Virus record (IMG/VR): IMGVR_UViG_3300044706_000059 | Coordinates: 56,332 to 76,331 of that record | Strand: one strand, 5' to 3' | From: an uncultured virus (IMG/VR IMGVR_UViG_3300044706_000059) | Taxonomy: Duplodnaviria > Heunggongvirae > Uroviricota > Caudoviricetes > Crassvirales | DNA: 20,000 nt | Part shown: positions 7,301-18,612 of the stretch, piece after piece | Layout: each line of letters opens with the position of its first letter | How positions within the stretch are numbered: position 1 is the stretch's first letter | Notes under the pieces: generated by a model | What the model saw: only the letters and a program-made list of their open reading frames with translations | Databases searched by the model: none | What the model was told of the DNA's origin: nothing | Position numbers and translations under genes: made by a program

Positions 7301-8579
7301 AGATAGTACGCGCTTTTTAAAAGGGGTACTGCAACGAATGGATGGTACGGGTACATGGCAGTCAGTGGGAGGTGGAGGCGGTAGTATTACCTTGGCTCCG
7401 ATAGGTTCTAGCCCAAACGCAGACGGCGCTTCCTTTAGCTCTGGAACGCTAACATTACAACCGGCTAATGGTTCATTCGGTGGCGTGGTAACTACGGCTT
7501 CTCAAACATTTGCTGGAACAAAAACATTTAATAATGAAATAATTGTTAGTGGTAATACACCTAATAATCCTACAGGTCTATTCGGAAACATGAATATTCA
7601 GTCGTTTCAAAATCTGAATGGATTTGTTGCCAATAATCTTTATTACAACAACGGAGGTAGCGGATATACGTACCTACAAAATGGACAAGGCGCTCAGTTC
7701 CATTTTTCCTCAGGCGACATATTATTCGAAACAGCCGGCACAGGCACAGCAGGGGGCGCTGCATCGCCTTCTACTATTATGCAAGTTACTAATCCGGGAG
7801 AAGTTTGGACAAGCGGATCTATGTCAGTTGGATCATTGGCAAGCCCTACTTGGAAATTAGATGTTAACGGCCCTATCCGATCAAAAAGTGCAACTGCTGG
7901 ATTAATATTAAACAATAGAGGTACTAATGTTGAATCAATAATGCTTTATAGCCCTAGCGGTGGAGAGCTAGATGTTTACGATTGGACAACAAGTGCTACA
8001 CGGTTCACATTTTTAAGTACAGGGCAACTACAACTTAACAATTATGGTAGCGGCGCGTTTACAGGCACAGCAACTCACACCTTACAGTCTACATCGGACG
8101 GGCATATTATAGAAGGAGCCTTATTCGTTGATAGTGCTATCTGGAAAAATGATGGCACCATGACTGCCAATCATACGCTGAGCGGTAATAGTAAAATATT
8201 GAATATAGGGGCAAGTGGAAGCAAATTAACTAACCTCTATATGTATACAAGCTCAACCATTAATATGTTTGGTGGAGTGGTATACGGCACTGACGCATCC
8301 AATACGGATGCAAATTATACTGTACCCAATAATGTAATTATTGCTGAACTTTCGCCATCATTATCTACAAACAGAACACTAACTCTACCTACTGCTACAT
8401 TAAACGGTACTATGATAACATTGGTAATGAGATATTCAACAAGTACTAATGTTTACAACCTATCAGCAGCGGTAACCGATAATGCGACTGGTACAACATT
8501 TACTCAATTGGATTGGGGGCATACGTATGATTTTTATTATGATCAAGGTCTTTCATGGAGACTTATTAGAAAATATTAA
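4350..8579 (+). CDS. Tail fibre/tail spike with pectate-lyase-3-like beta-helix (putative depolymerase) and N-terminal signal-peptide-like sequence
   Basis: YDPHWWGAKANGTYDDTWAVQQAINAA matches the FGAKGDGxTDDTxAIQxAI beta-helix cap; GGGGSGTVTSV and QTFAGTKTF fibre motifs; G/T/S/N-rich. Confidence 0.8.
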   Translation: MKRLLTILFLIISIVCNAQLPFNPVVTQTSTGNFKWGWPRADSGFINAVRDTFNARYSGSQIIRIQNGDTSLWFGAGGHLWFKNLQGKDTNSLSTRINFKLNTIDTTNKWIGLGRRIQDTMYRINDSTIGYTINQVLHTIQILGRSQGGGGGSGTVTSVNMSVPAALTVSGGPITGAGTFNLSGAGNSGQYIKGNGTLGTTDTSMITNFYLKSRGLLSGNSPLSYNNITGIFSIQNANTTGQKGAATFVNASFSDNGSGLIDLADVVTGGVCSNCNVTFDSKGRATTFTDGTGASVNARRSVTKATLDSLQLVNDTTLNVATGRKYDYQLDTTGRRAYYEDKYVIGKNYGEIRGLRLPDTSYVFRANSSQVVGDYVYDPTDVTTTDDTVVTIVSGTYRYKRYIPDGVYDPHWWGAKANGTYDDTWAVQQAINAANKYTGNNGTVIRLTGNYKFDPSNFVYNTGRGMVFEITGNVQLLNTWRITRGVSIIGKGGATAEASFAWSNIASIQYTVVNTGAPKAAVELTYGGNTLRNLTIGSYGGIGVKLNGTFFIPAALALLDNVSASVGSYTGKQTGLLVSDWFWFKLDNCSFSVDGTSAAGSSSIKLEGKTYFPDINLCYLGEFNNCTAQGRPIRIQAGDTADASLNVGIVNITFRNLTIENVAPDTAAIMLNSTRIPIDNIVFERPVMVDTYNMGFFIYNAGNNTTGVKLHDGDLLSGQLKKIFGGAAIVNKYFTSTAKPINNFVFNPNSRQLYDDFGINGSTDNINMNRGWKPPLELQLYDGGQIARNAARLKDSVITSASVVTEPFTGYNGDTVAIKVTPDGTNSNPTIQIKQYEQVWHTGDQIYFGAWVKSDMMDSIFSTALKAQIDGGYLWQNTSSSTLVSDITFISQPNNGWRFLICSGLIDASASDHSSHKMYLYINSNDTNRTHPYYVSHAFAYKIDSATAINQNEFLSWVKMNAGGLYAVPSKSYGIRDDLPFYVGDSTRFLKGVLQRMDGTGTWQSVGGGGGSITLAPIGSSPNADGASFSSGTLTLQPANGSFGGVVTTASQTFAGTKTFNNEIIVSGNTPNNPTGLFGNMNIQSFQNLNGFVANNLYYNNGGSGYTYLQNGQGAQFHFSSGDILFETAGTGTAGGAASPSTIMQVTNPGEVWTSGSMSVGSLASPTWKLDVNGPIRSKSATAGLILNNRGTNVESIMLYSPSGGELDVYDWTTSATRFTFLSTGQLQLNNYGSGAFTGTATHTLQSTSDGHIIEGALFVDSAIWKNDGTMTANHTLSGNSKILNIGASGSKLTNLYMYTSSTINMFGGVVYGTDASNTDANYTVPNNVIIAELSPSLSTNRTLTLPTATLNGTMITLVMRYSTSTNVYNLSAAVTDNATGTTFTQLDWGHTYDFYYDQGLSWRLIRKY

Positions 8580-8588
8580 ACTAACGGT

Positions 8589-8987
8589 ATGAAAAATTAT
8601 ATCATCTTGGTTATAGGTTGGATTTTAGGACAAATTGCTTATGCCTTTAAAAAATCATGGGAAATACAACGCAACAAACCTAATGTTACCTTTAAAGAAG
8701 CATTAACGATGCATTTTACAAAAGAAACAGCATCCTTTGGATTTGCATTTATAATTCTACTAATAGGGTTGTTTATTCTTCCCAATTTTATAAATATGGA
8801 TTTGACACAAGAAGATGTAAAGAATTTAGAAGTAGCAAAATGGAAAGTTTATTTTATTAATTTTTTAAATGTAGTTGCTGTGATATTTGGTTACTTGTGT
8901 CAAAATATAGGGTGGTTTTTCTTTGGAAAATCTGAAAAAATATTACAACAATCAGCACAACAGGAAGGAATTAATTTACCATCATAA
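8589..8987 (+). CDS. Membrane protein with about 3 TM segments, holin-like
   Basis: Three hydrophobic stretches; located between tail spike and endolysin. Confidence 0.6.
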   Translation: MKNYIILVIGWILGQIAYAFKKSWEIQRNKPNVTFKEALTMHFTKETASFGFAFIILLIGLFILPNFINMDLTQEDVKNLEVAKWKVYFINFLNVVAVIFGYLCQNIGWFFFGKSEKILQQSAQQEGINLPS

Positions 8988-8997
8988 ATAAAAAAGA

Positions 8998-9186
8998 ATG
9001 AAACAAAGACTACTTAATATTTTAAACGAATTGCATCTTCACTGTGAAAAAAATGCACATGATGAAGAACTTAAAGGCATTAAAGATAAATTTCATTCGG
9101 CGATTACGGCAATGGATGAAACAAACGACCCACCTAGTAGCGGAGGCGATCATCCGGAGCCGCCAGATGTTCCGCAGGAAAGCTAA
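8998..9186 (+). CDS. Small hypothetical protein with acidic Pro-rich tail (62 aa)
   Basis: A-rich initiation region 10 bp after previous stop. Confidence 0.6.
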   Translation: MKQRLLNILNELHLHCEKNAHDEELKGIKDKFHSAITAMDETNDPPSSGGDHPEPPDVPQES

Positions 9187-9544
9187 TAATAATGATTTAC
9201 CAGCCTCTATATATTTTTATATTGGAGGCTGTTTATTTTTCCTTGCTTTTGCGAAATTCTATATAACGGGATGGAAACAGTTTTATTACTTATGGAGTTT
9301 TACGAAAGATTTTTTATTTATCTATACCATATACCTTATTAAACCTAAACTGAGAAAAGAACTTTACCCAATTTTATTTTTTGCAGCAATTAGGGCGATA
9401 TGGGAAACAATTTCAATAGCAACTACTCCAAAATTAGATCCCAACAACAGAATAAAGGTAAACTACTTGTTTTACCTCATGTTGGCAATAGTAACCGTGC
9501 ATCTATTAAACCGCTTAAGAAAAAAATGGAAACAAAAATTTTAA
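9167..9544 (+). CDS. Membrane protein with about 4 TM segments (125 aa)
   Basis: Same frame as track ORF 9044-9544; ATG 9167 chosen to minimise overlap with 8998-9186. Confidence 0.6.
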   Translation: MFRRKANNNDLPASIYFYIGGCLFFLAFAKFYITGWKQFYYLWSFTKDFLFIYTIYLIKPKLRKELYPILFFAAIRAIWETISIATTPKLDPNNRIKVNYLFYLMLAIVTVHLLNRLRKKWKQKF

Positions 9545-9744
9545 TGTTTTTATTTAATTGTTGCTATGGAGTATTGATTTTCATAAACATTGAGAATTTC
9601 AAAGGATGGGCCTTGTTCTCAATTGGCTTGCTGTATGGAGTTGCGCGCTTATTTTTCTATGTCATAAAACAGAACCAGGAAAGACGAATGCGTGAATTGG
9701 ACATTATGGAACGGCAAAGAAAAGTTGCGGAAACCTCAAAATAA
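9526..9744 (+). CDS. Putative holin (72 aa, 2 TM, charged C-tail)
   Basis: METKILMFLF... from ATG 9526 within track ORF 9400-9744; two hydrophobic segments and a charged tail. Confidence 0.55.
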   Translation: METKILMFLFNCCYGVLIFINIENFKGWALFSIGLLYGVARLFFYVIKQNQERRMRELDIMERQRKVAETSK

Positions 9745-9755
9745 AATTATATTTG
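9725..9755 (+). promoter_or_regulatory. Bacteroidota sigma-A-type promoter
   Basis: TTG (9725-27), 20 nt spacer, TATATTTG (9748-55). Confidence 0.65.
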
Positions 9756-9759
9756 TAGG

Positions 9760-9850
9760 GCTTAACCAAAATTGGAAGATATGGCGCTCAAAGGTGCAAG
9801 ACGGGAAAATCCTAGTTTTGGTTAAGCACACTTTTGAGCGCCATTCTTAT
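9760..9850 (+). promoter_or_regulatory. Structured leader with two interleaved 16-bp helices upstream of spanin-like and endolysin genes
   Basis: 9760-75 pairs with 9812-27; 9781-96 pairs with 9829-44; G-U pairs favour the + strand. Confidence 0.6.
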
Positions 9851-9864
9851 TTAAAATTTGTAGC

Positions 9865-10632
9865 GTGAAATTACCTTACTGGTTAAAAATTCTAGCAATC
9901 ATACTGATTATATTTCTAGTGTATGCATTAATACGCGGCTGTAAAAATGCAAAGCATAAGTATGATAATTATGATAACATTTCAGCCCAACTGACAAAGG
10001 TATTACAAGAAAAAAAGGATGATAGTTTAGCTGCTCTGATGAAAGAGCAATTGCAACAAGACACTATTGCCTTCATAAATGGTCAATTAGCATTATTCCA
10101 GAATAAGAACTTGGTTACTACAGATTCATTAAGGGCAGCAAATAATCGTATAACAACCCTCCTAAATAAACCCATTTCTATTCCCCCCTTATCCGACAGC
10201 GGAAGAACAACAGTTAATAATGAGTTTATTGCCGATTGCTCAGACTGCTTCAAAGAACTATCCAACGGGCAACAATTAGTTACACGATATAAATCAGAAA
10301 AGGATAGCATCCAGTCATTATTGACTTATAAAATATCAATAATGGATGATGAAATAAACGACCTTAATAAAACAAATAATTTTCTCCATCAAAAGGTAAA
10401 TGATGCAGTTAGCCTAGCACAACGCAGTCAAAAACAATCACAAATAAGAAGAACATTATATTTTAGTTTGGCAGCATTAAGTATCAAGGGCCCCCTTCCT
10501 AGTGGAGTGGGAGCCGGTTTTATTTATATGGATAAACATATGCGTTTATTTGGAGCTAACTACTTTATAAGTAATTATGGGGCCATTTATCAGGCTCAAT
10601 TGTCTATGCCATTATCTTTAAAAGGGCGCTAA
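9865..10632 (+). CDS. Spanin-like lysis protein (255 aa)
   Basis: N-terminal TM followed by LIRGC, long coiled coil, C-terminal amphipathic beta-strands; adjacent to endolysin. Confidence 0.6.
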   Translation: MKLPYWLKILAIILIIFLVYALIRGCKNAKHKYDNYDNISAQLTKVLQEKKDDSLAALMKEQLQQDTIAFINGQLALFQNKNLVTTDSLRAANNRITTLLNKPISIPPLSDSGRTTVNNEFIADCSDCFKELSNGQQLVTRYKSEKDSIQSLLTYKISIMDDEINDLNKTNNFLHQKVNDAVSLAQRSQKQSQIRRTLYFSLAALSIKGPLPSGVGAGFIYMDKHMRLFGANYFISNYGAIYQAQLSMPLSLKGR

Positions 10633-10791
10633 ATGATTTGGTTACATTTTATACCAATTACAGTTTTAACGATCTTTTATTTGTTATTGAAAAGATTGCC
10701 AGAACGAATATCTAATGATCTGCAAGCAGATGCGAATGTAAATGAAGCCTATCGCATTATAAACAATAAAATTAAAATTAAGGATAGATGA
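10633..10791 (+). CDS. Small single-TM protein (52 aa, MIWLHFIPITVLTIFYLLLKR...), not in ORF track
   Basis: Starts directly after the previous stop and ends with an ATGA overlap on the endolysin start. Confidence 0.65.
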   Translation: MIWLHFIPITVLTIFYLLLKRLPERISNDLQADANVNEAYRIINNKIKIKDR

Positions 10792-11333
10792 CAGACTATC
10801 AACACTTATGGGATACAATGATAGTAGACCCTGATAAATTAGGCATTATAAGTGCTATTGTCAGCAAAATACAAACCCGAAAGAATTTATACGATACTGT
10901 TGAAGCTGCTATCCGCGTACCTTGGTATGTGACGGCTGTTATTCATTATAGAGAATCCGGGCTAAGTATTCTACGTCATCTGCATAATGGTGACCCATTA
11001 ACAGGAAAGACTATCCACGTTCCAGCCGGCAGGCCAATGCATGGAGAGCCACCGTTTTCTTGGCAGGCGAGTGCTATGGATGCATTACAGCTAAAAGGCT
11101 TCGATAAAGTAACAGATTGGTCTTTGCCTCATATGCTAGAATTGATAGAAGGATATAATGGTTTTGGCTATCAAAAACGGGGTATCCCATCTCCGTATTT
11201 ATGGTCATATTCTGATAATTACCACAGAGGTAAGTACGTGGCTGATGGTAAGTTTGACCCCAATGCAATAGATCAACAATGTGGCGCTGCCGTACTTCTC
11301 AAATCCTTAATATCGGATAGTATTCATAATTAA
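10788..11333 (+). CDS. Endolysin, lysozyme-family (COG5526-like)
   Basis: Motifs VPWYVTAVIHYRES, HLHNGDPL, VPAGRP, EGYNGFGY, SPYLWS, GKYVADGKFDP, QCGAA. Confidence 0.85.
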   Translation: MTDYQHLWDTMIVDPDKLGIISAIVSKIQTRKNLYDTVEAAIRVPWYVTAVIHYRESGLSILRHLHNGDPLTGKTIHVPAGRPMHGEPPFSWQASAMDALQLKGFDKVTDWSLPHMLELIEGYNGFGYQKRGIPSPYLWSYSDNYHRGKYVADGKFDPNAIDQQCGAAVLLKSLISDSIHN

Positions 11334-11379
11334 TAATCAAAACCCCTCTAGGATTCGTGGGCTTTAAAAGAGTAAGTTT

Positions 11380-11405
11380 AACCGTGGCATTAGTCACGGT
11401 TTTTT
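11380..11405 (+). terminator. Intrinsic terminator of late/lysis operon
   Basis: AACCGTGGC-ATTA-GTCACGGTT plus T run. Confidence 0.75.
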
Positions 11406-11423
11406 GCATTAAAAAAGCCCGGT

Positions 11424-11431
11424 TAAGACTA
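11424..11431 (+). repeat. Target-site duplication TAAGACTA, left copy
   Basis: Identical to 14639-14646 and abuts the left TIR. Confidence 0.9.
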
Positions 11432-11456
11432 GGTAATAACTACCAATTAGGGACAA
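11432..11456 (+). repeat. Left terminal inverted repeat GGTAATAACTACCAATTAGGGACAA
   Basis: 20/25 identical to the reverse complement of 14614-14638. Confidence 0.88.
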
Positions 11457-11463
11457 GGGCTTT

Positions 11464-11500
11464 AAAAGAAATAGCCTCCAAATTGGAGGCTATTTCTTTT
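11464..11500. terminator. Bidirectional terminator just inside the left end
   Basis: Perfect 17-bp inverted repeat AAAAGAAATAGCCTCCA-AAT-TGGAGGCTATTTCTTTT. Confidence 0.8.
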
Positions 11501-11621
11501 TCTTTTTAGCTTTCTTTTTGGGGGGAGTATTAGCCGCTATCTTCATGGCCTCCCCGAATGTCATATCAAGTTTGACGGTAATATTGGGAACTTGTTTCTT
11601 ACCTTTCTTGGTGGACTTCAT
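11490..11621 (-). CDS. Small Lys-rich protein (43 aa, MKSTKKGKKQVPNITVKLDMTFGEAMKIAANTPPKKKAKKKKK), not in ORF track
   Basis: ATG 9 bp after the transposase stop; TAG lies in the terminator arm. Confidence 0.65.
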   Translation of the reverse strand: MKSTKKGKKQVPNITVKLDMTFGEAMKIAANTPPKKKAKKKKK

Positions 11622-11630
11622 ACCCTAAAT

Positions 11631-12788
11631 CTACGCATATTTCCATTCAAAGCCTCCTGTAGAATGTCTTTGGCCTAGCAATACCAATCTAATTTTAGCT
11701 GGATCAAGATTGTTAATTTGTGCAGCTTCTTTAATTGACGGATATTGAGCTATTACTTCTCCATTCTTAATTTGTAACACAGCTATTTTTCTGCCATTTC
11801 CACCCTCAATTTTTATTTGGGGAGTAGGAATAGTAATTTCTATTTTAGGAGCGGGGCTTAGGATTAAATCTTTATACTTTAATCTCCCAGGAGCCTTTAT
11901 TAGTGCTAGTATAAACCGGTCTGCATCTTTCATTTTTCTCAGATTGTATCTGAAAGCCGTTTCTTCACAATACCGGTTTAAATGCTTTATGGTCACTTTG
12001 TGATAAGTGCCTATAATAGTTCTTTTTAAGTGACTGAATGCTCCTTCTATAGTATTTGTATAGATTACCTGATCCCGTACGTATTCGTTAATAGTATGAT
12101 TCACAGTTTCATGGGCTGCATAGTCGTTTTTTAATCCTACATAATTAGCGGAGGTATCTGTCATTAATACTGCATCTTTATCTACATTTTCTTGGATTAC
12201 TTTATGAACGATTGGTACGCCGCCTGTACTTTCTCCGCTGGAAATCAATTTTAATTCGCCACCTCTTTCCACGAGCCCCATTACCATTACTTTAGTATCA
12301 GCTACTGCATTTGCTTCTCTTAAAATCTTCCTTTTATGTTTGTTCATATTACTCACCTTACCACCTATATACACTTCATCCACTTCTACTATGTTGTCTA
12401 GCTTCACAGGTTCTTTGGGACGCATTATCTCCCTGATTCTGTGCAACATAAACCAGCTACATTTTTGGGAAATTCCTATATGTTTGGCTAATTGATAAGA
12501 TGAAATCCCTTTTTTATTAGCAGTAGCTAAATACATGGCAATGAACCATTTATTTAAAGGAATATTACTCGCCTCGAAGATTGTACCCACTTTAACGGAG
12601 AACTTTTTATAACATTCTTTATTGCCGCATTTGTACCGGGCTCCTTTTTCTATAGAATAACATTTATTATGATTACAGTAAGGACAAATAACTATCCCAT
12701 TGGGCCATCTTTGCTTTGCAAGATATTCACGGCAGGCTTGCTCGTCCGAGAGCTTTTGAATCAATTGCTGAAGGTTCTTAAACTCCAT
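11631..12788 (-). CDS. IS1595-family (ISXO2-like) DDE transposase with C-terminal NUMOD1-like domain
   Basis: Zn ribbon CPYC...CGNKEC, HTH ISSYQLAKHIGISQKCSWFMLHR, catalytic VEVDEVYIGG, LMTD, TNTIEGAFSHLKR; tail YPSIKEAA...STGGFEWKY. Confidence 0.95.
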   Translation of the reverse strand: MEFKNLQQLIQKLSDEQACREYLAKQRWPNGIVICPYCNHNKCYSIEKGARYKCGNKECYKKFSVKVGTIFEASNIPLNKWFIAMYLATANKKGISSYQLAKHIGISQKCSWFMLHRIREIMRPKEPVKLDNIVEVDEVYIGGKVSNMNKHKRKILREANAVADTKVMVMGLVERGGELKLISSGESTGGVPIVHKVIQENVDKDAVLMTDTSANYVGLKNDYAAHETVNHTINEYVRDQVIYTNTIEGAFSHLKRTIIGTYHKVTIKHLNRYCEETAFRYNLRKMKDADRFILALIKAPGRLKYKDLILSPAPKIEITIPTPQIKIEGGNGRKIAVLQIKNGEVIAQYPSIKEAAQINNLDPAKIRLVLLGQRHSTGGFEWKYA

Positions 12789-12794
12789 TTTGGC

Positions 12795-12825
12795 TTGATT
12801 TTAAAGAAAATCTTACCTACCTTTG
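12795..12825 (+). promoter_or_regulatory. Antisense-oriented promoter between transposase start and tRNA, overlapping an inverted repeat (12813-12835)
   Basis: TTG (12795-97), 20 nt, TACCTTTG (12818-25); TTACCTAC/GTAGGTAA inverted repeat. Confidence 0.6.
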
Positions 12826-12839
12826 GAGTAGGTAAAAGG

Positions 12840-12914
12840 TAGTCCTGGTGGGGCTCGGACCCACAACCTTCCGATTAGTAATCGGAAACTCTATCCCAAT
12901 TGAGCTACAGGACT
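12840..12914 (-). tRNA. tRNA(-like) gene, anticodon ACU (nominally Ser) on a short-arm Arg-like body
   Basis: AGTCCTG TA GCTC AATTGGGATA GAGT T TCCGA TTACTAA TCGGA AGGTT GTGGG TCCGAGC CCCAC CAGGACT A, followed by CCT; all four stems pair. Confidence 0.85.
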
Positions 12915-12974
12915 ATATATTACTTTTAGACTTGCGGATCTACCTTATGCTTTGTTAATCCGCTAGAATTTACT

Positions 12975-13020
12975 AAAAGACCACTTGTTTAAGTTTGGCG
13001 ACTGGGCAAGTGGTTTTTCT
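12975..13020 (+). ncRNA. Hairpin with UUGGCG loop and U tail; probable 3' part of a small antisense RNA
   Basis: ACCACTTGTTT/GGGCAAGTGGT stem needs G-U pairs so folds better on +; apical AGT-TTGGCG-ACT. Confidence 0.55.
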
Positions 13021-13021
13021 T

Positions 13022-13435
13022 TTATCTTGTAATCAATTCATACTGAATTTCTTTCCCCTCCTTTTCTATTCTTTTATATTTCTCCCCTTTATCTGCTGAT
13101 AAAGTTGCAGATACACTACTCCAAACCGACTTCATTTGAAGTTCAGGCTGAAATTCAAGGATGGCCCGCACAATCTCTTTACCGGTTAATGGCATCATGC
13201 TGGTTCGTAGAATGAAAGTTATTTTATTATTCCATGTCCAATTGGGGTCGTAATTTTCCCGAGAATGGCTATTATAAGGCTGTATCGACAGCCTCTTAAG
13301 ATTAGCAATTTTTTCATCTAACCTCTTTATTGCATAATTCAACTTATCTATCTGTTGTTGATATTCCTTCTTACTGGCTTCGTGCGCCTTTAATAATATA
13401 TCTATATCTTCTTTCTCTAAATTAGGCGAATACAT
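13022..13435 (-). CDS. Putative DNA-binding regulator: coiled coil plus winged-HTH-like domain (137 aa)
   Basis: Heptad N-terminus; WNNKITFILR..PLTGKEIVRAILE...VWSSVSATLS..YKRIE..IQYEL fits a wHTH pattern. Confidence 0.7.
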   Translation of the reverse strand: MYSPNLEKEDIDILLKAHEASKKEYQQQIDKLNYAIKRLDEKIANLKRLSIQPYNSHSRENYDPNWTWNNKITFILRTSMMPLTGKEIVRAILEFQPELQMKSVWSSVSATLSADKGEKYKRIEKEGKEIQYELITR

Positions 13436-13456
13436 TTGGCGACTGATTTAATACTG

Positions 13457-13488
13457 CAAACCTAGATACAAGCCTAGACATGACCAAA
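13457..13488 (-). promoter_or_regulatory. Promoter for regulator-tRNA-transposase unit
   Basis: Minus strand TTTG (13488-85), 20 nt, TAGGTTTG (13464-57). Confidence 0.65.
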
Positions 13489-13659
13489 TTTATTTCTAGG
13501 ATTGTTTTTAAAGTTGCTAGAAAATCTAGTAAAGGTGTTTTTTACACTAAGTAAAAAGAGTTTTAATTTCGCCAAATTCTTATTAAAACGGAATCTTTCG
13601 TTTGCATATATCGGTGCTTATTGTAATATTTGGCCCGACATAAAATAATTGCGTTAGCT

Positions 13660-13810
13660 CTCCCAGCTTTCCGAAACGACCAATTTTTACAAAGTATACG
13701 GGGGAACAGCGAAGCAGCACGCCTATGCGTGGGCTTTCGTCTGCTCGTATACATGGCGCTTGGTCGTGCCTGGAAAGCGGTGGATTGTTAAAGTCCCACG
13801 CTTTTTTTAT
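13660..13810 (+). ncRNA. GC-rich structured leader/attenuator ahead of cargo genes
   Basis: Nested stems GCTTTCC/GGAAAGC, ACGACCAA/TTGGTCGT, GTATACG/CGTATAC, CACGC/GCGTG; overlapping terminator AAAGCGGTGG...CCACGC plus T7. Confidence 0.65.
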
Positions 13811-13858
13811 TTATATCTCGCCTTCAAGGGACTGCAAGGCACCTAATACTTTTCTGCC

Positions 13859-14077
13859 ATGTCCCTGGCTAATATTACCGGTAAGAAAATAATAACATCC
13901 CTCCTTGGGCATTTCCTCAGTGAATTTAAATGGTATCGAAAATGGATTGGAGGCACCTGGTACAAGGTTCACGACCCTTATACCGGAACAGGATGGGGAG
14001 GATTTACAGAATGGACGCAAACAATACCCACCAGCGATACCGCCGAAATCCAGCTAACAGAATCATGGACTAATTAG
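13859..14077 (+). CDS. Transposon passenger, small Trp/Gly-rich protein (72 aa)
   Basis: First ORF after the leader; 5 bp gap to the next ORF. Confidence 0.6.
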   Translation: MSLANITGKKIITSLLGHFLSEFKWYRKWIGGTWYKVHDPYTGTGWGGFTEWTQTIPTSDTAEIQLTESWTN

Positions 14078-14082
14078 AATTT

Positions 14083-14484
14083 ATGACCGAGAATACTGTA
14101 TTATTCCATAACTCGATTATATTCGGCTTATTTATAGTTTGCCTTATTTGGGGATCAATTACAATTAGTTTTTATACTGCTAAGGAACTGGTGATTTATC
14201 ATAGATTAAAAAAGGGAGGCAAAGCATCTATTTTAGAGCAAGCAACATATTTTTTTATTGCAATAGTTGGATGCTCAATTATTGCCGGTTTATGTGGCGA
14301 AACTCCGAACATTCATCATTCCCCCACTTCCCTTACAATTGTAGCATTTATATCTCTATTCATTCCATCATCACTAGGAATTATTCTTGGATTAAATACA
14401 GAATCTAAAATGTCAGACAAAGAAAGAGCCATTAAAAGAATAAAAATGAAAGATGCTGAAAATGGAGACGAAGGACGGTATTAA
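14083..14484 (+). CDS. Transposon passenger, 3-TM membrane protein (133 aa)
   Basis: Three hydrophobic segments and a charged C-tail. Confidence 0.7.
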   Translation: MTENTVLFHNSIIFGLFIVCLIWGSITISFYTAKELVIYHRLKKGGKASILEQATYFFIAIVGCSIIAGLCGETPNIHHSPTSLTIVAFISLFIPSSLGIILGLNTESKMSDKERAIKRIKMKDAENGDEGRY

Positions 14485-14570
14485 GTTATAGAAGGGGGGC
14501 TTCAATTCAATGACATTGTAATAAACATTATTATTCTCCGTATGATTGATTACAAATTGATATGTAAATT

Positions 14571-14603
14571 AAAAAGGTAGACTAAAAATAGTCTACCTTT
14601 TTT
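14571..14603. terminator. Bidirectional terminator just inside the right end
   Basis: AAAAAGGTAGACTA-AAAA-TAGTCTACCTTTTT. Confidence 0.8.
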
Positions 14604-14613
14604 GTTAAGCCTT

Positions 14614-14638
14614 TTGTCCCATAAAGGTTGTTATTACC
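14614..14638 (-). repeat. Right terminal inverted repeat
   Basis: Reverse complement is GGTAATAACAACCTTTATGGGACAA. Confidence 0.88.
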
Positions 14639-14646
14639 TAAGACTA
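14639..14646 (+). repeat. Target-site duplication TAAGACTA, right copy
   Basis: Identical to 11424-11431. Confidence 0.9.
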
Positions 14647-14818
14647 ACCAGGCTTTGATTGATCGTACCCTTTAAAACAAATAGTTCTTAAAAAGTTTAA
14701 AAATTGGAAGCCCAACACAATCAAACTAACTAAAACTTAACTAACATGAGAAAAAATCCAGAAGATGAAATCTAGGCATATATAAAGAATACATCCCGCA
14801 GGGCTTCCAAAGGAGTTG

Positions 14819-15178
14819 CTATTGTAATGCTTTATCTTGTATGAATAGTTCCCAATGTTTCAGGTCTGCATCTGCATCTACATCCATTTCGTGACGAATT
14901 GCTATAGATAATGCATCCCACTGAGATAGGTTGTAATTCTTGACGAAATCAGCCAAACTATAAGTACATTCACCCTCAATTACAGAGTTAGTTGTAATAT
15001 CCACATCATCAATGCTGCCTATCGAAGATAATAATTCTAAATAATCAACAGGTTTAAGTATAAGGTGAAAATTTTTTGACTGATTGTTATGGCTGCGGAA
15101 ATAAGATATAGACATCAGTTCTTCCGTCATACTCCAATTAGTAACGGTAATCTGGTTTCTTAATTGTTGAGTGGTCAT
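14819..15178 (-). CDS. Hypothetical phage protein (119 aa)
   Basis: ORF with AT-rich initiation region in the minus-strand operon. Confidence 0.75.
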   Translation of the reverse strand: MTTQQLRNQITVTNWSMTEELMSISYFRSHNNQSKNFHLILKPVDYLELLSSIGSIDDVDITTNSVIEGECTYSLADFVKNYNLSQWDALSIAIRHEMDVDADADLKHWELFIQDKALQ

Positions 15179-15244
15179 TGGTTTAAGATTTAAAAGGTTT
15201 TAAAATAAGAAATCTCATGTAATGTGTGCGGGTTAAAAACGGGC

Positions 15245-16120
15245 TTATTCATTAAATATGGAACGAATTATTTCACCTCCATAGGCATTTTGAGTTAATT
15301 TAACAAAGGTTTCTACCGTCATTGAACCATCAAGAGTAATACCATTTTCTTTTAACCAATGTTTTTTACCAGATTCACAAGAACCTGTGAGAATTGTATG
15401 CCATTTGTAAAAAAGATCATTGGAATATTGATTTCCCGGTTTGAATTGGCTTTTAAATTCTAAAATGGCCTTCTCCTTATCAAGTGATGAGTAATACTTT
15501 ATATCTACGGCTTCATTAGCTTCCTTAATAGTTTCACCATGCGCAAATAAATTGCCTTTTTTAACTACATACATCGCAGAGGTTGAAAAATCGGCCACAT
15601 TAATAATTGAGACTAGTGCAACATTGCCTTTTATACTATCAAAAGTGCATGGTATTTTGTCGATATAGTAAACCTTTTTGACACCAATAGAAGAAAATAT
15701 AATGCCGTAGCTGTCGCCGTCGCCGTAGCCATCGCCGTAGCCGTAGCTGTTGCCGTAGCCGTTGCCGTAGCCGTTGCCGTTGCCGTCGCCGTTGCCGTCG
15801 CCGTTGCCGTCGCTGTTGCCGTAGCCGTTGCCGTTGCCGTCGCCGTTGCCGTCGCCGTCGCCGTTGCCGTCGCCGTAGCCATCACCGTAGCCGTCGCCGT
15901 TGCCGTCGCCGTCGCCGTAGCCGTAGCCGTAGCCATCACCGTAGCCGTCGCCGTTGCCGTCGCCGTCGCCGTCGCCGTTGCCGTAGCTGTTGCCGTAGCC
16001 GTTGCCGTAGCCGTAGCCGTAGCCGTAGCCGTTGCCGTCGCCGTTGCCGTCGCCGTCGCCGTTGCCGTAGCCATCGCCGTAGCCGTCTATTTTCAAGAAT
16101 TGTTTAATTATCTTTTCCAT
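15245..16120 (-). CDS. Phage protein with long G-[D/N/Y] dipeptide repeat and globular C-terminal domain (291 aa)
   Basis: GDGYGNG repeats then YIDKIP...FAHGETIKEA...WHTILTGSCESG; overlaps upstream gene by 13 bp. Confidence 0.85.
   Translation of the reverse strand: MEKIIKQFLKIDGYGDGYGNGDGDGNGDGNGYGYGYGYGNGYGNSYGNGDGDGDGNGDGYGDGYGYGYGDGDGNGDGYGDGYGDGNGDGDGNGDGNGNGYGNSDGNGDGNGDGNGNGYGNGYGNSYGYGDGYGDGDSYGIIFSSIGVKKVYYIDKIPCTFDSIKGNVALVSIINVADFSTSAMYVVKKGNLFAHGETIKEANEAVDIKYYSSLDKEKAILEFKSQFKPGNQYSNDLFYKWHTILTGSCESGKKHWLKENGITLDGSMTVETFVKLTQNAYGGEIIRSIFNE
15704..16087. repeat. Coding hexanucleotide tandem repeat GCCGT[A/C/T], about 64 units
   Basis: Directly visible; encodes the Gly-X repeat. 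Confidence 0.95.
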
Positions 16121-16410
16121 GCGCTTACTGAATTAATTGTTTTTAGGGCAGCTTCTGAAATTGGATGATATTCAATAACATTTAAGATAGTAGATTTATC
16201 GGCATCCCCTAATTGAGCCGAAAATTTACAGTTTGATGGCTTACTAACTCCATCAGTAGCGATTGTTACCACATCTAATGCCCCTGCCCAATAATATAAG
16301 CGCCTGGCATTAGTAATTACAAGAGTTGAACCTTTTTCTTCAATGATTTTACCGATGAAAACGCCAGCACGATCTGCGCGGATAATAGAGAATCCTGTTG
16401 TTTGTTTCAT
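16108..16410 (-). CDS. Conserved phage protein (DUF6948-like), typical partner of Gly-repeat gene
   Basis: IIRADRAGVFIG...NARRLYYWAGA...ATDGV motif; family assigned from memory. Confidence 0.7.
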   Translation of the reverse strand: MKQTTGFSIIRADRAGVFIGKIIEEKGSTLVITNARRLYYWAGALDVVTIATDGVSKPSNCKFSAQLGDADKSTILNVIEYHPISEAALKTINSVSAWKR

Positions 16411-16440
16411 GTTGATTTTATTTTTTGAGTTTTAGAATGT

Positions 16441-16722
16441 TTATTCAGGTGAATAATAAGAGCAAACTATATCATCCGTTTGCTTATCTACAACCAATAC
16501 TAGATTGCTTTCCCGGCATCTTACCCAATATAGCTTATGGTCGTATTTATGTGCTTTTAAATCGGACATTTTAGGGCATTCGAGGTAATGTTTTCGAGTG
16601 CAGGAACCAAAGAGCAAAGCCAATGTTATAATCAAGACAAGCACAAAAAAGAATCCGTGTATGTTTTGCCGTCTGGAATAGTGTGGGCCTTCGTAATAGG
16701 CTTTAGGGGTTTGCTTTTTCAT
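16441..16722 (-). CDS. Hypothetical single-TM/lipoprotein-like protein (93 aa)
   Basis: Hydrophobic segment ending FGSC; ATGA overlap with upstream gene. Confidence 0.7.
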   Translation of the reverse strand: MKKQTPKAYYEGPHYSRRQNIHGFFFVLVLIITLALLFGSCTRKHYLECPKMSDLKAHKYDHKLYWVRCRESNLVLVVDKQTDDIVCSYYSPE

Positions 16723-16904
16723 TTTCTCTTTCTTTTGCGTTTGGTTAATTTATATTCTCGCATTAAGGAGTGAATAAAGTCGTTTTGGGTTACTAAGTTT
16801 TCGTGTGGCATTCGTTTATTAGTACCGGCCCAATTGTGTTCCTGTCTATCCCAGCGCCTTATTTCAGAGATAAACGTTTGCCACTCGTTCATATTTCGTT
16901 TCAT
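16719..16904 (-). CDS. Small hypothetical protein (61 aa)
   Basis: 4-bp overlaps with both neighbours. Confidence 0.7.
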   Translation of the reverse strand: MKRNMNEWQTFISEIRRWDRQEHNWAGTNKRMPHENLVTQNDFIHSLMREYKLTKRKRKRK

Positions 16905-17209
16905 AAATTAATTTTACACCATTTGATAATTAACTCGGAATCCTTTTTATTGAGATAAAGCACATAATGTAAATACCTGCCTTCTTTATTGCTTCTCCAT
17001 TTGGCTTCGACCAGGTTAATTAATTGACCATAAGAGTGGAGAAGTTTGTAAAAAATAGTTTCATTGTCACATTGAATAATAGCAGTATCATTTACATAGC
17101 TAATTGTAGTTTCATCTGCTATTTTTACGGGAGTAGGTTGGGCATTTGCTTTTAACCAGAACGCGCCCACCAACGAAAGAACCAAAAAGATAATGATTGC
17201 TTTTTTCAT
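16901..17209 (-). CDS. Secreted hypothetical protein (102 aa)
   Basis: Signal peptide MKKAIIIFLVLSLVGAFWLKANA-Q. Confidence 0.75.
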   Translation of the reverse strand: MKKAIIIFLVLSLVGAFWLKANAQPTPVKIADETTISYVNDTAIIQCDNETIFYKLLHSYGQLINLVEAKWRSNKEGRYLHYVLYLNKKDSELIIKWCKINL

Positions 17210-17214
17210 GTTTG

Positions 17215-17448
17215 TTAATAAAAGGTTATAAATTGTTTTAATTGCTGAATTACAAGTGATTTATAAGCTATTATTAAGCAGATAATACCGGTTAACATAA
17301 CTATCGCTGATATTGCCGCCCACCAACTAAAGTAAATGGGCAAGGTCTATGGAACATTGCGTGTAATAAGCCATATACAACCAACATACGCCCATATAAT
17401 AAAACTGGCACTGGAAAGCGAGATTAATAACCAAGATATACGTTTCAT
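17215..17448 (-). pseudogene. 2-TM membrane protein gene interrupted by one in-frame TAG (17347-17349)
   Basis: MKRISWLLISLSSASFIIWAYVGCIWLITRNVP*TLPIYFSWWAAISAIVMLTGIICLIIAYKSLVIQQLKQFITFY; fills the gap between neighbours. Confidence 0.6.
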
Positions 17449-17460
17449 CGGTAATAAGTT

Positions 17461-17634
17461 TTAAAAGGTTAAATAAAAAGACTTTGAATTAATAAGAACC
17501 AATTGCCCACCTACTACAGCCCACACATTAAAGGTGGAGTGTGAATAACGACTACTAATAGTACCATCTAGGTTGAATGTTATTCTGTACTGTAGTTGGT
17601 CTTTTAGGGTTGATATGATAGTTGCGTGGTTCAT
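17461..17634 (-). CDS. Small hypothetical protein (57 aa, MNHATIISTLKDQ...), not in ORF track
   Basis: Hand-translated; tightly packed in operon. Confidence 0.55.
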   Translation of the reverse strand: MNHATIISTLKDQLQYRITFNLDGTISSRYSHSTFNVWAVVGGQLVLINSKSFYLTF

Positions 17635-17640
17635 AGCCCT

Positions 17641-17757
17641 TTAGTTATAGTATTTAATAGCTTCATAAATAGTTTCAAATGCTTCAAAGTCAGGGATATA
17701 AAGGGCCATACCACCGGAATAGCCTAATAAGGTAGCTTGATCAATTATTTCAGGCAT
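17641..17757 (-). CDS. Small hypothetical protein (38 aa, MPEIIDQATLLGYSGG...), not in ORF track
   Basis: Hand-translated; tightly packed in operon. Confidence 0.55.
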   Translation of the reverse strand: MPEIIDQATLLGYSGGMALYIPDFEAFETIYEAIKYYN

Positions 17758-17771
17758 AATTTAGAGGTTTA

Positions 17772-18014
17772 TTAACGTGAAAACGAAATACCTAATGCTA
17801 ATAATGCTTTCTCTCCGCGAAGTATTGCACAAGATAAATGAGTACCACTAGTATAATCGCATTCAACCAATTCCTTTAAAGCTAAAAGAGCTTCTTTGTA
17901 TTGTCCTTTTTGCCATTCAGCGCCATCTTTAAAAGCTACTTCTACTATTCGTTCACAGTTTACACCAGAGTTTCGAAGTGCATAATCAGCGGCATATTGA
18001 AAAATATCTGACAT
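17772..18014 (-). CDS. Hypothetical phage protein (80 aa)
   Basis: AFKDGAEWQK resembles a common small phage protein motif. Confidence 0.7.
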   Translation of the reverse strand: MSDIFQYAADYALRNSGVNCERIVEVAFKDGAEWQKGQYKEALLALKELVECDYTSGTHLSCAILRGEKALLALGISFSR

Positions 18015-18022
18015 ATAATATA

Positions 18023-18316
18023 TTAATAAAACTTTGAGATAATCTCGTTAGTCAAATCACTATCGTATTCTGGCTCATAAGGGTCACTAATTGCGTAAAG
18101 AGTAAGACGGCACATTAACGCATTTAATTTCGGGTCATTTAATTCCGCAGCACGCGAAGCCACTTCCTCCAACATGCCCGCAAATATCTGTAAGGGCCTT
18201 TTCAAAATGCCCGTACCGGGATTGTTAAGGATTTCTTGTAATAATCCTGGAGTATGGCAACGCCATTCAAGATTTCTACCAGGTACAAGAATTTCTTTAT
18301 TTTTTATAGTTGGCAT
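18023..18316 (-). CDS. Hypothetical phage protein (97 aa)
   Basis: Operon spacing, helical protein. Confidence 0.75.
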   Translation of the reverse strand: MPTIKNKEILVPGRNLEWRCHTPGLLQEILNNPGTGILKRPLQIFAGMLEEVASRAAELNDPKLNALMCRLTLYAISDPYEPEYDSDLTNEIISKFY

Positions 18317-18325
18317 AAAACAAGT

Positions 18326-18562: not shown

Positions 18563-18582
18563 AATATTGGTATTAAATGATT

Positions 18583-18612
18583 GAAAAATAGCCAGTTATT
18601 ACCGATACTGGC
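18583..18612 (-). terminator. Terminator-like hairpin within early operon
   Basis: Minus strand GCCAGT-N10-ACTGGC followed by TATTTTT. Confidence 0.55.

What the first reader, a model, noticed from the sequence alone, without database searches (positions are those of the whole stretch)
12838..12914. Transposon-borne tRNA with ACU anticodon on an Arg-like short-arm body
Seen: full cloverleaf, loop UU-ACU-AA, 5-nt variable loop, A73, D-loop ending GGGAUA, non-canonical T-loop UCCGAGC, 3' CC but no full CCA, about 50 bp upstream of the transposase ATG on the same strand. Known: bacterial tRNA-Ser has a long variable arm and G73, AGU is normally read by GCU, and ArgRS uses A20, C35 and U/G36. Inference: it may be an Arg-charged AGU misreader, a decoy for anticodon nucleases, or an RNase P/Z processing signal that matures the transposase mRNA.
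Basis: partly seen in the sequence, partly recalled or inferred. Interest (0 to 1): 0.8.

Follow-up and report, generated by a model that had tools for sequence, protein, structure and literature searches.

The report
Transposon-carried arginine-type tRNA reading a serine codon
A jumping gene that recently landed in a soil phage carries a well-formed arginine-type tRNA whose anticodon matches the serine codon AGU, and a second, independent copy of the same odd design sits in a related jumping gene in a bacterium, so the oddity looks selected and not accidental.

Summary
A 75-nt tRNA lies on the minus strand (12914..12840; Rfam 60.4 bits) with anticodon ACU, a 5-nt variable loop, A73, D-loop ..GGGAUA and T-loop UCCGAGC (C55), 49 nt upstream of an IS1595-type transposase.

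"Transposon-borne" is now shown. A 95-99% identical phage lacks window 11432-14638. This 3,207-bp insert has imperfect terminal inverted repeats and an 8-bp duplication (TAAGACTA).

The body is arginine-type. The GGAUA D-loop occurs in 5 of 5 Arg and 0 of 51 other tRNAs of a candidate-host-family genome. C35, U36 and A73 are present, and the nearest relatives are Arg tRNAs.

The anticodon is not a one-off error. A related 3.9-kb element in a Chitinophagaceae genome carries a second Arg-type tRNA with ACU and the same C55. It is only 56% identical to ours, and 9 stem pairs differ by compensatory changes. It was the only such tRNA in 401 family genomes; 401 phylum genomes had none.

Function is unproven. 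My best guess (about 0.35) is an arginine-charged AGU reader, a mobile mistranslating tRNA. A non-decoding decoy and a decaying passenger remain rivals. A role in processing the transposase mRNA is unlikely, because a terminator follows the tRNA. No expression data were found.

The parts
11424..11431 (.). Left copy of the 8-bp target-site duplication, TAAGACTA
   Evidence: The related phage G004 has a single copy at its empty site (L063 6637-6644). Window 9738-11431 and 14639-19943 both abut that copy.
11432..11462 (+). Terminal inverted repeat next to the transposase 3' end (GGTAATAACTACCAATTAGGGACAA...)
   Evidence: It is an imperfect inverted match to 14608-14638. The same repeat bounds the related G001 element, and diverged versions bound the bacterial elements.
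11464..11500 (.). Perfect 18-bp hairpin, terminator-like, just inside the element end
11631..12788 (-). IS1595-family transposase of 385 aa: Zn-ribbon, DDE domain and a NUMOD-like C-terminal DNA-binding domain
   Evidence: Pfam hits are PF12762 1.6e-33, PF12760 9.2e-9 and PF22083 2.2e-5 (the last is 24.4 bits, below its cut-off of 27). There is a PADLOC homing-endonuclease hit on residues 335-384. It is 78% identical to the G001 copy and 57-59% identical to Chitinophagaceae copies.
12801..12837 (-). Terminator-like hairpin with TTTTCTTT tail, immediately 3' of the tRNA and 5' of the transposase ATG
   Evidence: One search gives a stem at 12837..12811 with 11 pairs. This is a consensus scan only: 4 sites were found in the region against 2.6 +/- 1.6 in shuffles.
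12838..12914 (-). tRNA gene with an Arg-type body, anticodon ACU (12879..12877) and C55 (12858). The mature end is A73 at 12840.
12976..13018 (-). Hairpin after ORF137, a weak terminator candidate upstream of the tRNA
   Evidence: inverted repeat I4. The terminator scan did not call it.
13022..13435 (-). Cargo ORF137: coiled-coil N-terminus and a winged-helix-like C-terminus. It is an orphan.
   Evidence: The only protein found in the 5.8-billion-protein search was itself. The Atlas gives weak structure matches to FUR-like and HARE-HTH-like winged helices, TM 0.45-0.55.
13590..14085 (-). GC-rich stretch without a credible ORF, a candidate structured RNA. Its core 13601-13811 is 92% identical to the G001 element.
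   Evidence: (z -3.31 on the minus strand; -0.69 on the plus strand). No Rfam family matched at E<=1.
14083..14484 (+). Cargo ORF133, a predicted membrane protein by its hydrophobic stretches
   Evidence: Sequence. No Pfam, PHROG or PADLOC hit.
14608..14638 (-). Second terminal inverted repeat
14639..14646 (.). Right copy of the 8-bp target-site duplication, TAAGACTA

Best explanation
Window 11432-14638 is a 3.2-kb passenger-carrying insertion sequence of the IS1595 family. It inserted recently into the genome of an uncultured soil phage whose host is probably in the Chitinophagaceae (Bacteroidota). One of its passengers is a structurally intact tRNA gene of arginine type. It carries the arginine identity set (A20 in a GGAUA D-loop, C35, U36, A73), but its wobble base is A. 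The anticodon ACU therefore pairs with the serine codon AGU. Position 55 of the T-loop is C in place of the near-universal U. The same combination (Arg-type D-loop, ACU, C55) recurs in a second, very different tRNA carried inside a related element in a bacterial genome, so the design is under selection and is not a random mutation or a sequencing error.

Inferred mechanism, not shown: the gene is transcribed as its own unit and ends at the hairpin and T-run just downstream. The transcript is matured and charged with arginine by the host ArgRS. A34 probably stays unmodified, because bacterial TadA reads the bases of the tRNA-Arg(ACG) loop. The tRNA then inserts arginine at AGU codons. On this reading it is a mobile mistranslating tRNA, comparable in logic to the tRNA-ProX family.
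For: SHOWN.
(1) It is a real tRNA with all 21 stem pairs standard.
(2) It lies on a transposon. Phage G004 is 95-99% identical on both sides and lacks 11432-14638. There is an 8-bp duplication TAAGACTA and there are terminal inverted repeats. Five further elements of the family were mapped, each with a perfect 8-bp duplication.
(3) It has an arginine-type body. The motif G[GA]AUA[AG] occurs in 5 of 5 Arg and 0 of 51 other tRNAs of Ferruginibacter genome G002. The five best-scoring hits among 401 Bacteroidota genomes are Arg tRNAs. Of the 20 loci fetched, 6 are Arg and 14 are one conserved Thr(UGU) that scores lower. The closest relative found is a phage tRNA-Arg(UCU), 63 of 75 identical. The 2023 identity review states that A20, C35, U36 and A/G73 define arginine identity, and that serine identity needs the long extra arm (passages of PMC9976931).
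(4) The design recurs. The element in G049 (3,871 bp, duplication GTGTGGCG) holds a tRNA with D-loop AACGGAUA, loop CUACUAA, T-loop UCCGAUU and A73. It is 42 of 75 identical to ours, and 9 of 21 stem pairs differ by double compensatory changes. It resembles its own genus's tRNA-Arg(CCU) at 74%.
(5) The design is rare. A pattern for Arg-type D-loop plus UACUAA plus GUYCGA hit 1 of 401 family genomes (G049) and 0 of 401 phylum genomes. Among normal UCU/CCU Arg tRNAs, 149 of the 150 listed rows have U55; 108 rows were not listed. In a further sample, 95 of 95 parsed Bacteroidota tRNAs have U55.
(6) Engineered tRNAs with an ACU anticodon read AGU efficiently in E. coli lysate (passages of PMC6158751).
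Against: No expression, processing or charging data exist; no RNA run was listed. The phage itself uses AGU 291 times in 21,376 codons. Two of the four AGU codons of the element's own transposase sit at serines conserved in homologues. An efficient Arg-inserting AGU reader would therefore damage its carrier. C55 is unexplained by a decoding role. The G049 copy has 2 mismatches in its 5-bp anticodon stem, which argues against efficient ribosomal use. Only 2 of 6 mapped elements carry such a tRNA, and its place and orientation relative to the transposase differ between the two. No convincing promoter was found. The sigma-70 scan is at shuffle level, and I saw no Bacteroidota-type -7 box by eye. 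The extra G in the D-loop makes the A20 numbering an assumption.
Confidence: 0.35

Rival explanations
1. It is a non-decoding tRNA mimic. The RNA keeps the shape and arginine-type surface of tRNA-Arg(NCU) but is not meant to translate. It acts as a decoy or competitive inhibitor for a protein that binds such tRNAs, for example an anticodon nuclease or a T-loop-cutting tRNase of a defence or competition system. A34 and C55 would make it uncleavable or keep it out of translation.
For: Two features at normally invariant or forbidden positions (A34, C55) recur together in both copies. The G049 copy has a weakened anticodon stem, which a decoy could tolerate but a decoder less so. The G049 element carries a second tRNA whose body and anticodon also disagree: an Ala-type UGC loop with U73 and C3-G70. 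The elements carry small orphan cargo genes of the kind seen in defence and counter-defence islands; that resemblance is my inference. A mistranslator would harm its own carrier.
Against: No nuclease or defence gene was identified in or next to the elements; PADLOC gave no hit on the cargo. No known system is recalled that targets tRNA-Arg(NCU) in Bacteroidota. Conservation of a particular wobble base is explained more simply by codon reading.
Confidence: 0.25
2. It is a hitch-hiking, decaying passenger. An ordinary tRNA-Arg(UCU/CCU) gene was captured by the element, is no longer needed, and has drifted. A34 and C55 are shared either by descent from one damaged ancestor or by coincidence.
For: Only 2 of 6 mapped elements carry it, and the position and orientation are not conserved. 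A single base change at position 34 from UCU or CCU gives ACU. The G049 copy has two stem mismatches. The one C55 found among ordinary Arg(CCU) sequences is a tandem partial copy that ARAGORN does not call, which looks like a pseudogene. No homologue of our tRNA was found by four exact-pattern scans of IMG/VR or by one scan of JGI metagenomes.
Against: Our copy has 21 of 21 intact pairs and the tertiary-interaction bases expected of a tRNA (recalled set), apart from C55, and scores 60 bits. The two copies differ at 44% of positions yet keep the cloverleaf through 9 double compensatory changes. If instead they were captured independently (ours is closest to a phage Arg-UCU type, G049's to its host Arg-CCU), the same two rare changes arose twice. 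By my rough estimate the chance of that is about 1 in 100.
Confidence: 0.2
3. It is a processing or punctuation signal. The tRNA serves as an RNase P/Z cleavage site that matures or regulates the transposase mRNA.
For: In this window the tRNA lies 49 nt upstream of the transposase start on the same strand.
Against: A terminator-like hairpin and T-run lie between the two. The 78% identical transposase in G001 has no tRNA upstream. Four bacterial elements have none. In G049 the tRNA is downstream and convergent. A processing signal would not constrain the anticodon.
Confidence: 0.05
4. It is a sequencing or assembly error at the wobble base of a normal tRNA-Arg(UCU).
For: One base separates ACU from UCU. 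Only one sample (possibly filed twice) holds the sequence.
Against: An independently built contig at depth 12.3 is identical with no variant letters. A second ACU/C55 tRNA exists in an unrelated bacterial assembly.
Confidence: 0.01

Closest known systems
tRNA-ProX family (tRNA-ProA/ProT/ProN) of Streptomyces and Kitasatospora: natural dual-identity mistranslating tRNAs
   Same: The body of one amino-acid identity carries the anticodon of another. All members have A34, which in bacteria is otherwise almost confined to tRNA-Arg(ACG), and they carry other rare deviations at conserved positions (abstract of PMC10404621; passages of review PMC11415595).
   Different: Those are proline bodies reading Ala, Thr or Asn codons. 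They are usually encoded next to a dedicated ProRS isoform and their mistranslation is shown experimentally. Here the body is arginine-type and reads a Ser codon. No synthetase gene is nearby, the carrier is a transposon in a phage and in a Bacteroidota chromosome, and nothing is shown experimentally.
Phage-encoded tRNA-Arg(UCU), for example in crAss-like phages and IMG/VR contig L110
   Same: These are the closest sequence relatives. L110 is 63 of 75 identical. cr4_1 and cr115_1 are 75-76% identical and have the same kind of D-arm..AAUUG(G/A)AUAGAG. AGA is the phage's commonest Arg codon (311 of 834), the usual rationale for such tRNAs (recalled).
   Different: They have U34 and read AGA/AGG as arginine. 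L110 and cr115_1 have U55 and C56; cr4_1 has U55 and U56. They are not on a transposon in the loci seen.
IS1595-family insertion sequences with passenger genes (tIS)
   Same: The element has a Zn-ribbon plus DDE_Tnp_IS1595 transposase, 8-bp target duplications, and terminal inverted repeats beginning GG (family description in passages of PMC8101967; the tIS concept in a passage of PMC7986276).
   Different: The transposase has an added NUMOD-like C-terminal domain. The cargo includes tRNA genes, and one copy sits in a phage genome. I found no report of a tRNA as IS1595 cargo (searches; listings only for most papers).
Bacterial tRNA-Ser(GCU), the normal AGU/AGC reader
   Same: It reads the same codon. 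G002 has tRNA-Ser(gct).
   Different: It is a class II tRNA of 86-90 nt with a long variable arm and G73. Ours has a 5-nt variable loop and A73, so it lacks the serine identity element (passages of PMC9976931).

Membership tests
tRNA (Rfam RF00005) | The cloverleaf covariance model scores above the gathering score | tested here: met
   60.4 bits against 29. ARAGORN also calls it.
tRNA (Rfam RF00005) | Canonical T-loop U54-U55-C56 | tested here: not met
   The T-loop is UCCGAGC, so position 55 is C. U55 is present in 95 of 95 other Bacteroidota tRNAs parsed.
tRNA-Arg (bacterial arginine identity) | A20 in the D-loop | tested here: met
   The D-loop ends GGAUA as in 5 of 5 Arg tRNAs of G002 and 0 of 51 others. 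The extra G makes the exact numbering an assumption.
tRNA-Arg (bacterial arginine identity) | C35 and U36 or G36, and discriminator A/G73 | tested here: met
   C35, U36 and A73 read directly. The criteria come from PMC9976931 passages.
tRNA-Arg (bacterial arginine identity) | The anticodon reads an arginine codon (NCG or YCU) | tested here: not met
   The anticodon is ACU, which pairs with AGU, a Ser codon.
tRNA-Arg (bacterial arginine identity) | Aminoacylation by ArgRS | not testable with these tools
   This needs an in vitro charging assay.
tRNA-Ser | Long variable arm (class II) and G73 | tested here: not met
   The variable loop is 5 nt and the discriminator is A73. The G002 Ser tRNAs are 86-90 nt and end ..G73.
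IS1595 family insertion sequence | DDE_Tnp_IS1595 domain and N-terminal Zn-ribbon in one transposase | tested here: met
   PF12762 1.6e-33 and PF12760 9.2e-9
IS1595 family insertion sequence | 8-bp target-site duplication and terminal inverted repeats | tested here: met
   TAAGACTA on both sides, with a single copy at the empty site in G004. All six mapped elements have 8-bp duplications.
Natural mistranslating (dual-identity) tRNAs such as tRNA-ProX | The identity elements of one amino acid are combined with the anticodon of another, conserved across members | tested here: met
   Arg elements plus ACU occur in two diverged members. Only two members are known.
Natural mistranslating (dual-identity) tRNAs such as tRNA-ProX | Demonstrated misincorporation in vivo or in vitro | not testable with these tools
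   This needs a reporter or proteomics.
Natural mistranslating (dual-identity) tRNAs such as tRNA-ProX | A dedicated synthetase gene is co-encoded | tested here: not met
   No synthetase-like ORF lies in either element.

The most novel reading that the evidence does not exclude
A family of IS1595-type transposons spreads a purpose-built arginine tRNA that decodes the serine codon AGU. In one element it travels with a second tRNA whose body and anticodon disagree. These would be mobile mistranslation modules that move between bacterial chromosomes and phage genomes and rewrite part of the code of whatever cell they enter. The conserved U55-to-C change would tune or gate the activity.
Probability: 0.3. 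Interest if true: 0.85.

Novelty: new variant of a known kind. Interest (0 to 1): 0.62.

Why it matters
Natural tRNAs that deliberately break the code are known from very few lineages. The clearest bacterial case, tRNA-ProX, is chromosomal and tied to its own synthetase.

If this one works, it would be a mistranslating tRNA that needs only the host ArgRS. It rides a transposon and has already reached a phage. That would make codon reassignment or proteome-wide Ser-to-Arg substitution a horizontally transferable trait.

If it proves to be a decoy, it would be a new kind of tRNA-mimic cargo in phage-host conflict. Either way, the recurrent pairing of A34 with C55 gives a sharp, testable handle on what position 55 contributes.

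The work also defines a new subgroup of passenger-carrying IS1595 elements, with a NUMOD-type DNA-binding tail. These are active in both Chitinophagaceae genomes and their phages.

Tried and rejected
Homologue scans.
- Three exact-pattern scans of IMG/VR found nothing: anticodon arm with NNN, T arm, and acceptor plus D arm.
- A fourth scan with an 18-mer gave 19 hits. Twelve were tRNAs (8 Lys, 3 Arg-UCU, 1 Asn) and none had ACU.
- One JGI metagenome scan gave 8 hits, none of them a tRNA.
- blastn against isolate phages found only generic tRNA similarity of 83% or less.

Reads and expression.
- No RNA holder was listed for the stretch.
- The contigs of runs X3-X5 covered only short parts of the transposase gene and not the tRNA.

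Private-code idea, that AGU means Arg within the element. Rejected. AGU codons of the G000 transposase align with serines conserved in homologues (alignment columns 74 and 253). The G097 sequence in that script was mis-extracted (40 aa) and should be ignored.

Cargo.
- ORF137 has no relative other than itself.
- No cargo protein is shared between G000 and the other elements. The only cross-element cargo match is G049 ORF191 to L014 ORF160, at 27% identity.
- PADLOC, Pfam and PHROGs gave nothing on the cargo.
- The conserved 212-nt block is absent from the bacterial loci. In IMG/VR it was found only in G001.

Other checks.
- Earlier-findings look-ups returned nothing.
- The Wolf et al. 2002 TadA paper is not held, so whether TadA would deaminate an ACU loop rests only on general statements that TadA reads loop bases C32-A38 (bioRxiv 10.1101/2022.06.16.496122 passages).
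- The thermodynamic fold of the tRNA alone gives z -2.57 and does not reproduce the D-arm. This is usual for tRNAs and I did not use it as evidence.
- A literature search for ACU-anticodon tRNAs found only engineered ones (listing, passages).

Full report
WHAT IS THERE

The window is the last 20 kb of a 76,331-nt linear IMG/VR virus record, with 35.7% G+C and a CheckV completeness of 62%. The contig encodes a large terminase, virion structural proteins, a UvsX-like recombinase, RNase H and HNH endonucleases. It is a tailed phage.

ARAGORN finds exactly one tRNA in the whole contig, at window 12838-12914 on the minus strand with anticodon ACT. Rfam's tRNA model scores it 60.4 bits against a threshold of 29.

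Read on the minus strand it has 21 of 21 standard stem pairs. Its parts are D-loop AAUUGGGAUA, anticodon loop UU-ACU-AA, variable loop AGGUU, T-loop UCCGAGC and A73, followed by CC-U. The transposase ATG (12788) is 49 nt further on, on the same strand.

A separately assembled public contig at depth 12.3, probably from the same sample, is letter-for-letter identical over 11600-13500.

IT IS ON A TRANSPOSON

A second virus record, G004 (64,487 nt, 92% complete), matches window 4777-11431 at 95-98% in three blocks and window 14639-19943 at 99%. The two inner matches share the same 8 nt of G004. Window 11432-14638 (3,207 bp) is therefore an insertion.

- It is flanked by TAAGACTA on both sides, and G004 has one copy of that sequence.
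- Its ends are imperfect inverted repeats, GGTAATAAC.ACC....GGGACAA.
- The ORF 12788..11631 has the IS1595 DDE domain (1.6e-33) and the IS1595 Zn-ribbon (9.2e-9). It also has a NUMOD-like C-terminal domain (2.2e-5, just under Pfam's cut-off; PADLOC homing-endonuclease model 8e-6).
- These are the family's defining traits as described in PMC8101967 (passages). Insertion sequences with passengers are called tIS (PMC7986276, passage).
- The element is single-copy in the contig.

A third virus record, G001 (84,697 nt, complete), holds a related element with the same terminal repeats and an 8-bp duplication GAAAATTC. Its transposase is 78% identical. It has different cargo and no tRNA.

Besides the tRNA, the cargo in the window comprises:
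- an orphan 137-aa protein with a winged-helix-like C-terminus;
- a 133-aa membrane-like protein;
- a GC-rich, ORF-poor stretch.

THE BODY IS ARGININE-TYPE, NOT SERINE-TYPE

Transposase relatives (57-59% identical, full length) occur in Ferruginibacter, Chitinophaga and other Chitinophagaceae, which points to the host group.

- I extracted all 56 tRNAs that ARAGORN calls at the Rfam hits of Ferruginibacter genome G002. The D-loop motif G[GA]AUA[AG], which holds A20, occurs in 5 of 5 Arg tRNAs and 0 of 51 others.
- The G002 Ser tRNAs are 86-90 nt long with a long arm and G73.
- In a BLAST of our tRNA against 401 Bacteroidota genomes, 223 had a match. The five best-scoring hits are Arg tRNAs (CCG at 79% identity, ACG at 78-82%). 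Of the 20 loci fetched, 6 are Arg and 14 are one conserved Thr(UGU) that scores lower.
- The closest relative found anywhere is a phage tRNA-Arg(UCU) in IMG/VR locus L110, at 63 of 75 identical.
- The tRNA-Arg(UCU) genes of crAss-like phages share the D-arm and 6 of 7 acceptor pairs.
- The 2023 identity review states that arginine identity rests on A20, C35, U36 (printed as U/C36) and A/G73, with U20a and A38 as additions in plants. It also states that serine identity rests on the size of the extra arm (PMC9976931, passages).

Our tRNA has every arginine element and lacks the serine one. Position 34 is not an arginine determinant, so ArgRS should accept it. That is an inference.

THE ANTICODON AND C55 ARE NOT A ONE-OFF

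I searched 301 Chitinophagaceae genomes with the transposase; 62 had a hit at E<=1e-40. I ran ARAGORN on the 30 best loci.

One of the three full-length hits, in genome G049, has two tRNAs about 400-570 nt beyond the transposase stop on the opposite strand. One of them is again called Ser(act). Rfam scores it 48.1 bits.

- Its parts are D-loop AACGGAUA, loop CU-ACU-AA, variable loop AGAU, T-loop UCCGAUU and A73. That is the same arginine-type D-loop, the same ACU and the same C55.
- Both tRNAs lie inside a 3,871-bp element bounded by diverged copies of the terminal repeat and a perfect duplication GTGTGGCG.
- Three further bacterial elements (G097, L014, L017; 2.7-3.2 kb) also have perfect 8-bp duplications and no tRNA. 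The G002 element has a left-end-like repeat only, and I did not map it.
- The two ACU tRNAs are only 42 of 75 identical. Of 21 stem pairs, 7 are the same, 3 differ on one side and 9 differ by double compensatory changes. Two are broken in G049, both in the anticodon stem.
- G049's copy is 74% identical to its own genus's tRNA-Arg(CCU). The acceptor, D and T arms are nearly the same, the anticodon stem is replaced, C34 has become A and U55 has become C. Ours is nearer to the phage Arg(UCU) type.

There are two possible histories. The two tRNAs may descend from one ancestor and have kept the fold through compensatory change. Or they were recruited separately and acquired the same two rare changes. 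Each history implies selection.

RARITY

- A pattern requiring GGATAGA, then TACTAA, then GTYCGA at tRNA spacing hit 1 of 401 Chitinophagaceae genomes (G049) and 0 of 401 Bacteroidota genomes. No plus-strand control hits occurred, and one reversed-pattern control hit occurred.
- The same pattern with a B at position 34 (C, G or T; the listed hits have U or C) hit 154 of 161 genomes. Of the 150 rows listed, by my reading 149 have GTTCGA and one has GTCCGA; 108 rows were not shown.
- That single exception, in G092, is a tandem partial copy. ARAGORN does not call it, and no transposase is nearby.
- In 95 of 95 other Bacteroidota tRNAs that I could parse, position 55 is U.

HOW IT MOST LIKELY WORKS

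Shown: it is an intact tRNA-shaped gene, it carries arginine identity elements and an AGU-matching anticodon, it is transposon cargo, and the design recurs.

Inferred: transcription, maturation, arginylation and AGU decoding.
- A terminator-like hairpin with a T-run sits directly after the tRNA (12837..12811). This suggests its own transcription unit, or one shared with ORF137, that ends before the transposase.
- Engineered tRNAs with an ACU anticodon read AGU efficiently in E. coli lysate, better than GCU versions. An ACU graft made one orthogonal tRNA a substrate of an endogenous synthetase (PMC6158751, passages).
[quoted passage not shown] Our loop differs from the G002 tRNA-Arg(ACG) loop at positions 32, 36 and 37. 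A34 therefore probably stays A; I could not check this further.

The outcome would be Ser-to-Arg replacement at AGU codons. The nearest precedent is the tRNA-ProX family. These have proline bodies with AGC, AGU or AUU anticodons, all have A34, and their mistranslation is shown (PMC10404621 abstract; PMC11415595 passages).

AGAINST THE MISREADER READING

- The phage uses AGU 291 times in 21,376 codons of 107 ORFs.
- Two of the four AGU codons in the element's own transposase are at conserved serines, so there is no private code.
- C55 has no obvious decoding role.
- G049's anticodon stem is weak.
- Only 2 of 6 mapped elements carry the tRNA, in different arrangements.

These points keep two rivals alive. 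One is a non-decoding mimic or decoy. It is helped by G049's second cargo tRNA, which also mismatches body and anticodon: an Ala-type UUUGCAC loop with U73 and C3-G70 instead of G3-U70 and A73. The other rival is a decaying passenger.

The processing-signal idea fits the data poorly. Sequencing error is essentially excluded.

COMPARISON AND NOVELTY

The element is a member of the IS1595 family; all tested defining features are met. The tRNA is a member of the tRNA family by model score but fails the canonical T-loop. It has arginine identity elements but fails the arginine anticodon, so I do not file it as tRNA-Arg or as tRNA-Ser. It works like, or at least is built like, the dual-identity tRNAs.

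I found nothing in print on natural bacterial or phage ACU tRNAs, or on tRNA cargo of IS1595 elements (searches; mostly listings). The Siguier et al. 2009 paper that defined the family is known to me only from a reference list and from recall.

LIMITS

- There are only two members.
- There are no expression data.
- The host is inferred only from transposase relatives.
- The numbering of A20 assumes that the extra D-loop G lies before G18.
- The G002 element was not mapped.
- The survey patterns require a GGATAGA D-loop and would miss variants.

Noticed in passing
window 13590-14085 (minus strand); core 13601-13811: This is a GC-rich island (43-48% against about 32% around it) with no credible ORF. 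On the minus strand it folds better than all 100 shuffles (z -3.31), but not on the plus strand (z -0.69). Its 212-nt core is 92% identical to the related G001 element, although the transposase genes are only 75% identical at the DNA level. No Rfam family matched at E<=1. It was not found in the bacterial elements or elsewhere in IMG/VR. It is a candidate transposon-associated structured RNA.
   Followed up: partly
L125 3050-3121 (minus) = G049:C1, inside the 3.9-kb element: This is a second cargo tRNA (Rfam 54.7 bits), called Ala(UGC). It has U73 and C3-G70 where alanine identity needs A73 and G3-U70. Its D-arm is closest to tRNA-Cys. It is another tRNA whose body and anticodon disagree, next to the ACU tRNA.
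   Followed up: partly
window 11631-12788 (minus), residues about 335-385: The IS1595 transposase ends in a NUMOD-like, homing-endonuclease-type DNA-binding domain. The full-length Chitinophagaceae homologues (G002, G049, L014, L017) and the G001 copy keep it. Most other family hits stop near residue 310.
   Followed up: partly
G001 (IMGVR_UViG_3300025913_000026), loci L007 and L008: This complete 84.7-kb phage has inverted terminal repeats, each with a tRNA-Leu(UAA). It also carries its own copy of the transposon family, with two signal-peptide proteins and a small Zn-finger protein as cargo.
   Followed up: no
G002:C7:90078-92052 (locus L056): The Ferruginibacter genome has a 2-kb array of about 16-20 short, atypical tRNA genes, including Ile(UAU) and a second Arg(ACG). 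It looks like a phage- or island-borne tRNA array.
   Followed up: no
window 15245-16120 (minus): This 291-aa ORF has an N-terminal 140 residues made of GYGDGNG-type repeats (weak Pfam TrAA12-like hit) followed by a globular C-terminus. An alternative frame reads as a long (AT)n artefact ORF.
   Followed up: no
G092:C64:11124-11511 (locus L161 about 4109-4512): A tRNA-Arg(CCU) is followed 350 nt later by a partial duplicate whose T-loop also has C55. ARAGORN does not call the duplicate, and no transposase lies within the 9 kb fetched.
   Followed up: partly
window 8581-9737 against G004 (L063 3805-4951): Apart from the transposon, the only poorly matching stretch between the two near-identical phages lies just after the 1409-aa tail-fibre-like gene. 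It covers small membrane-protein ORFs and may be a second variable cassette.
   Followed up: no
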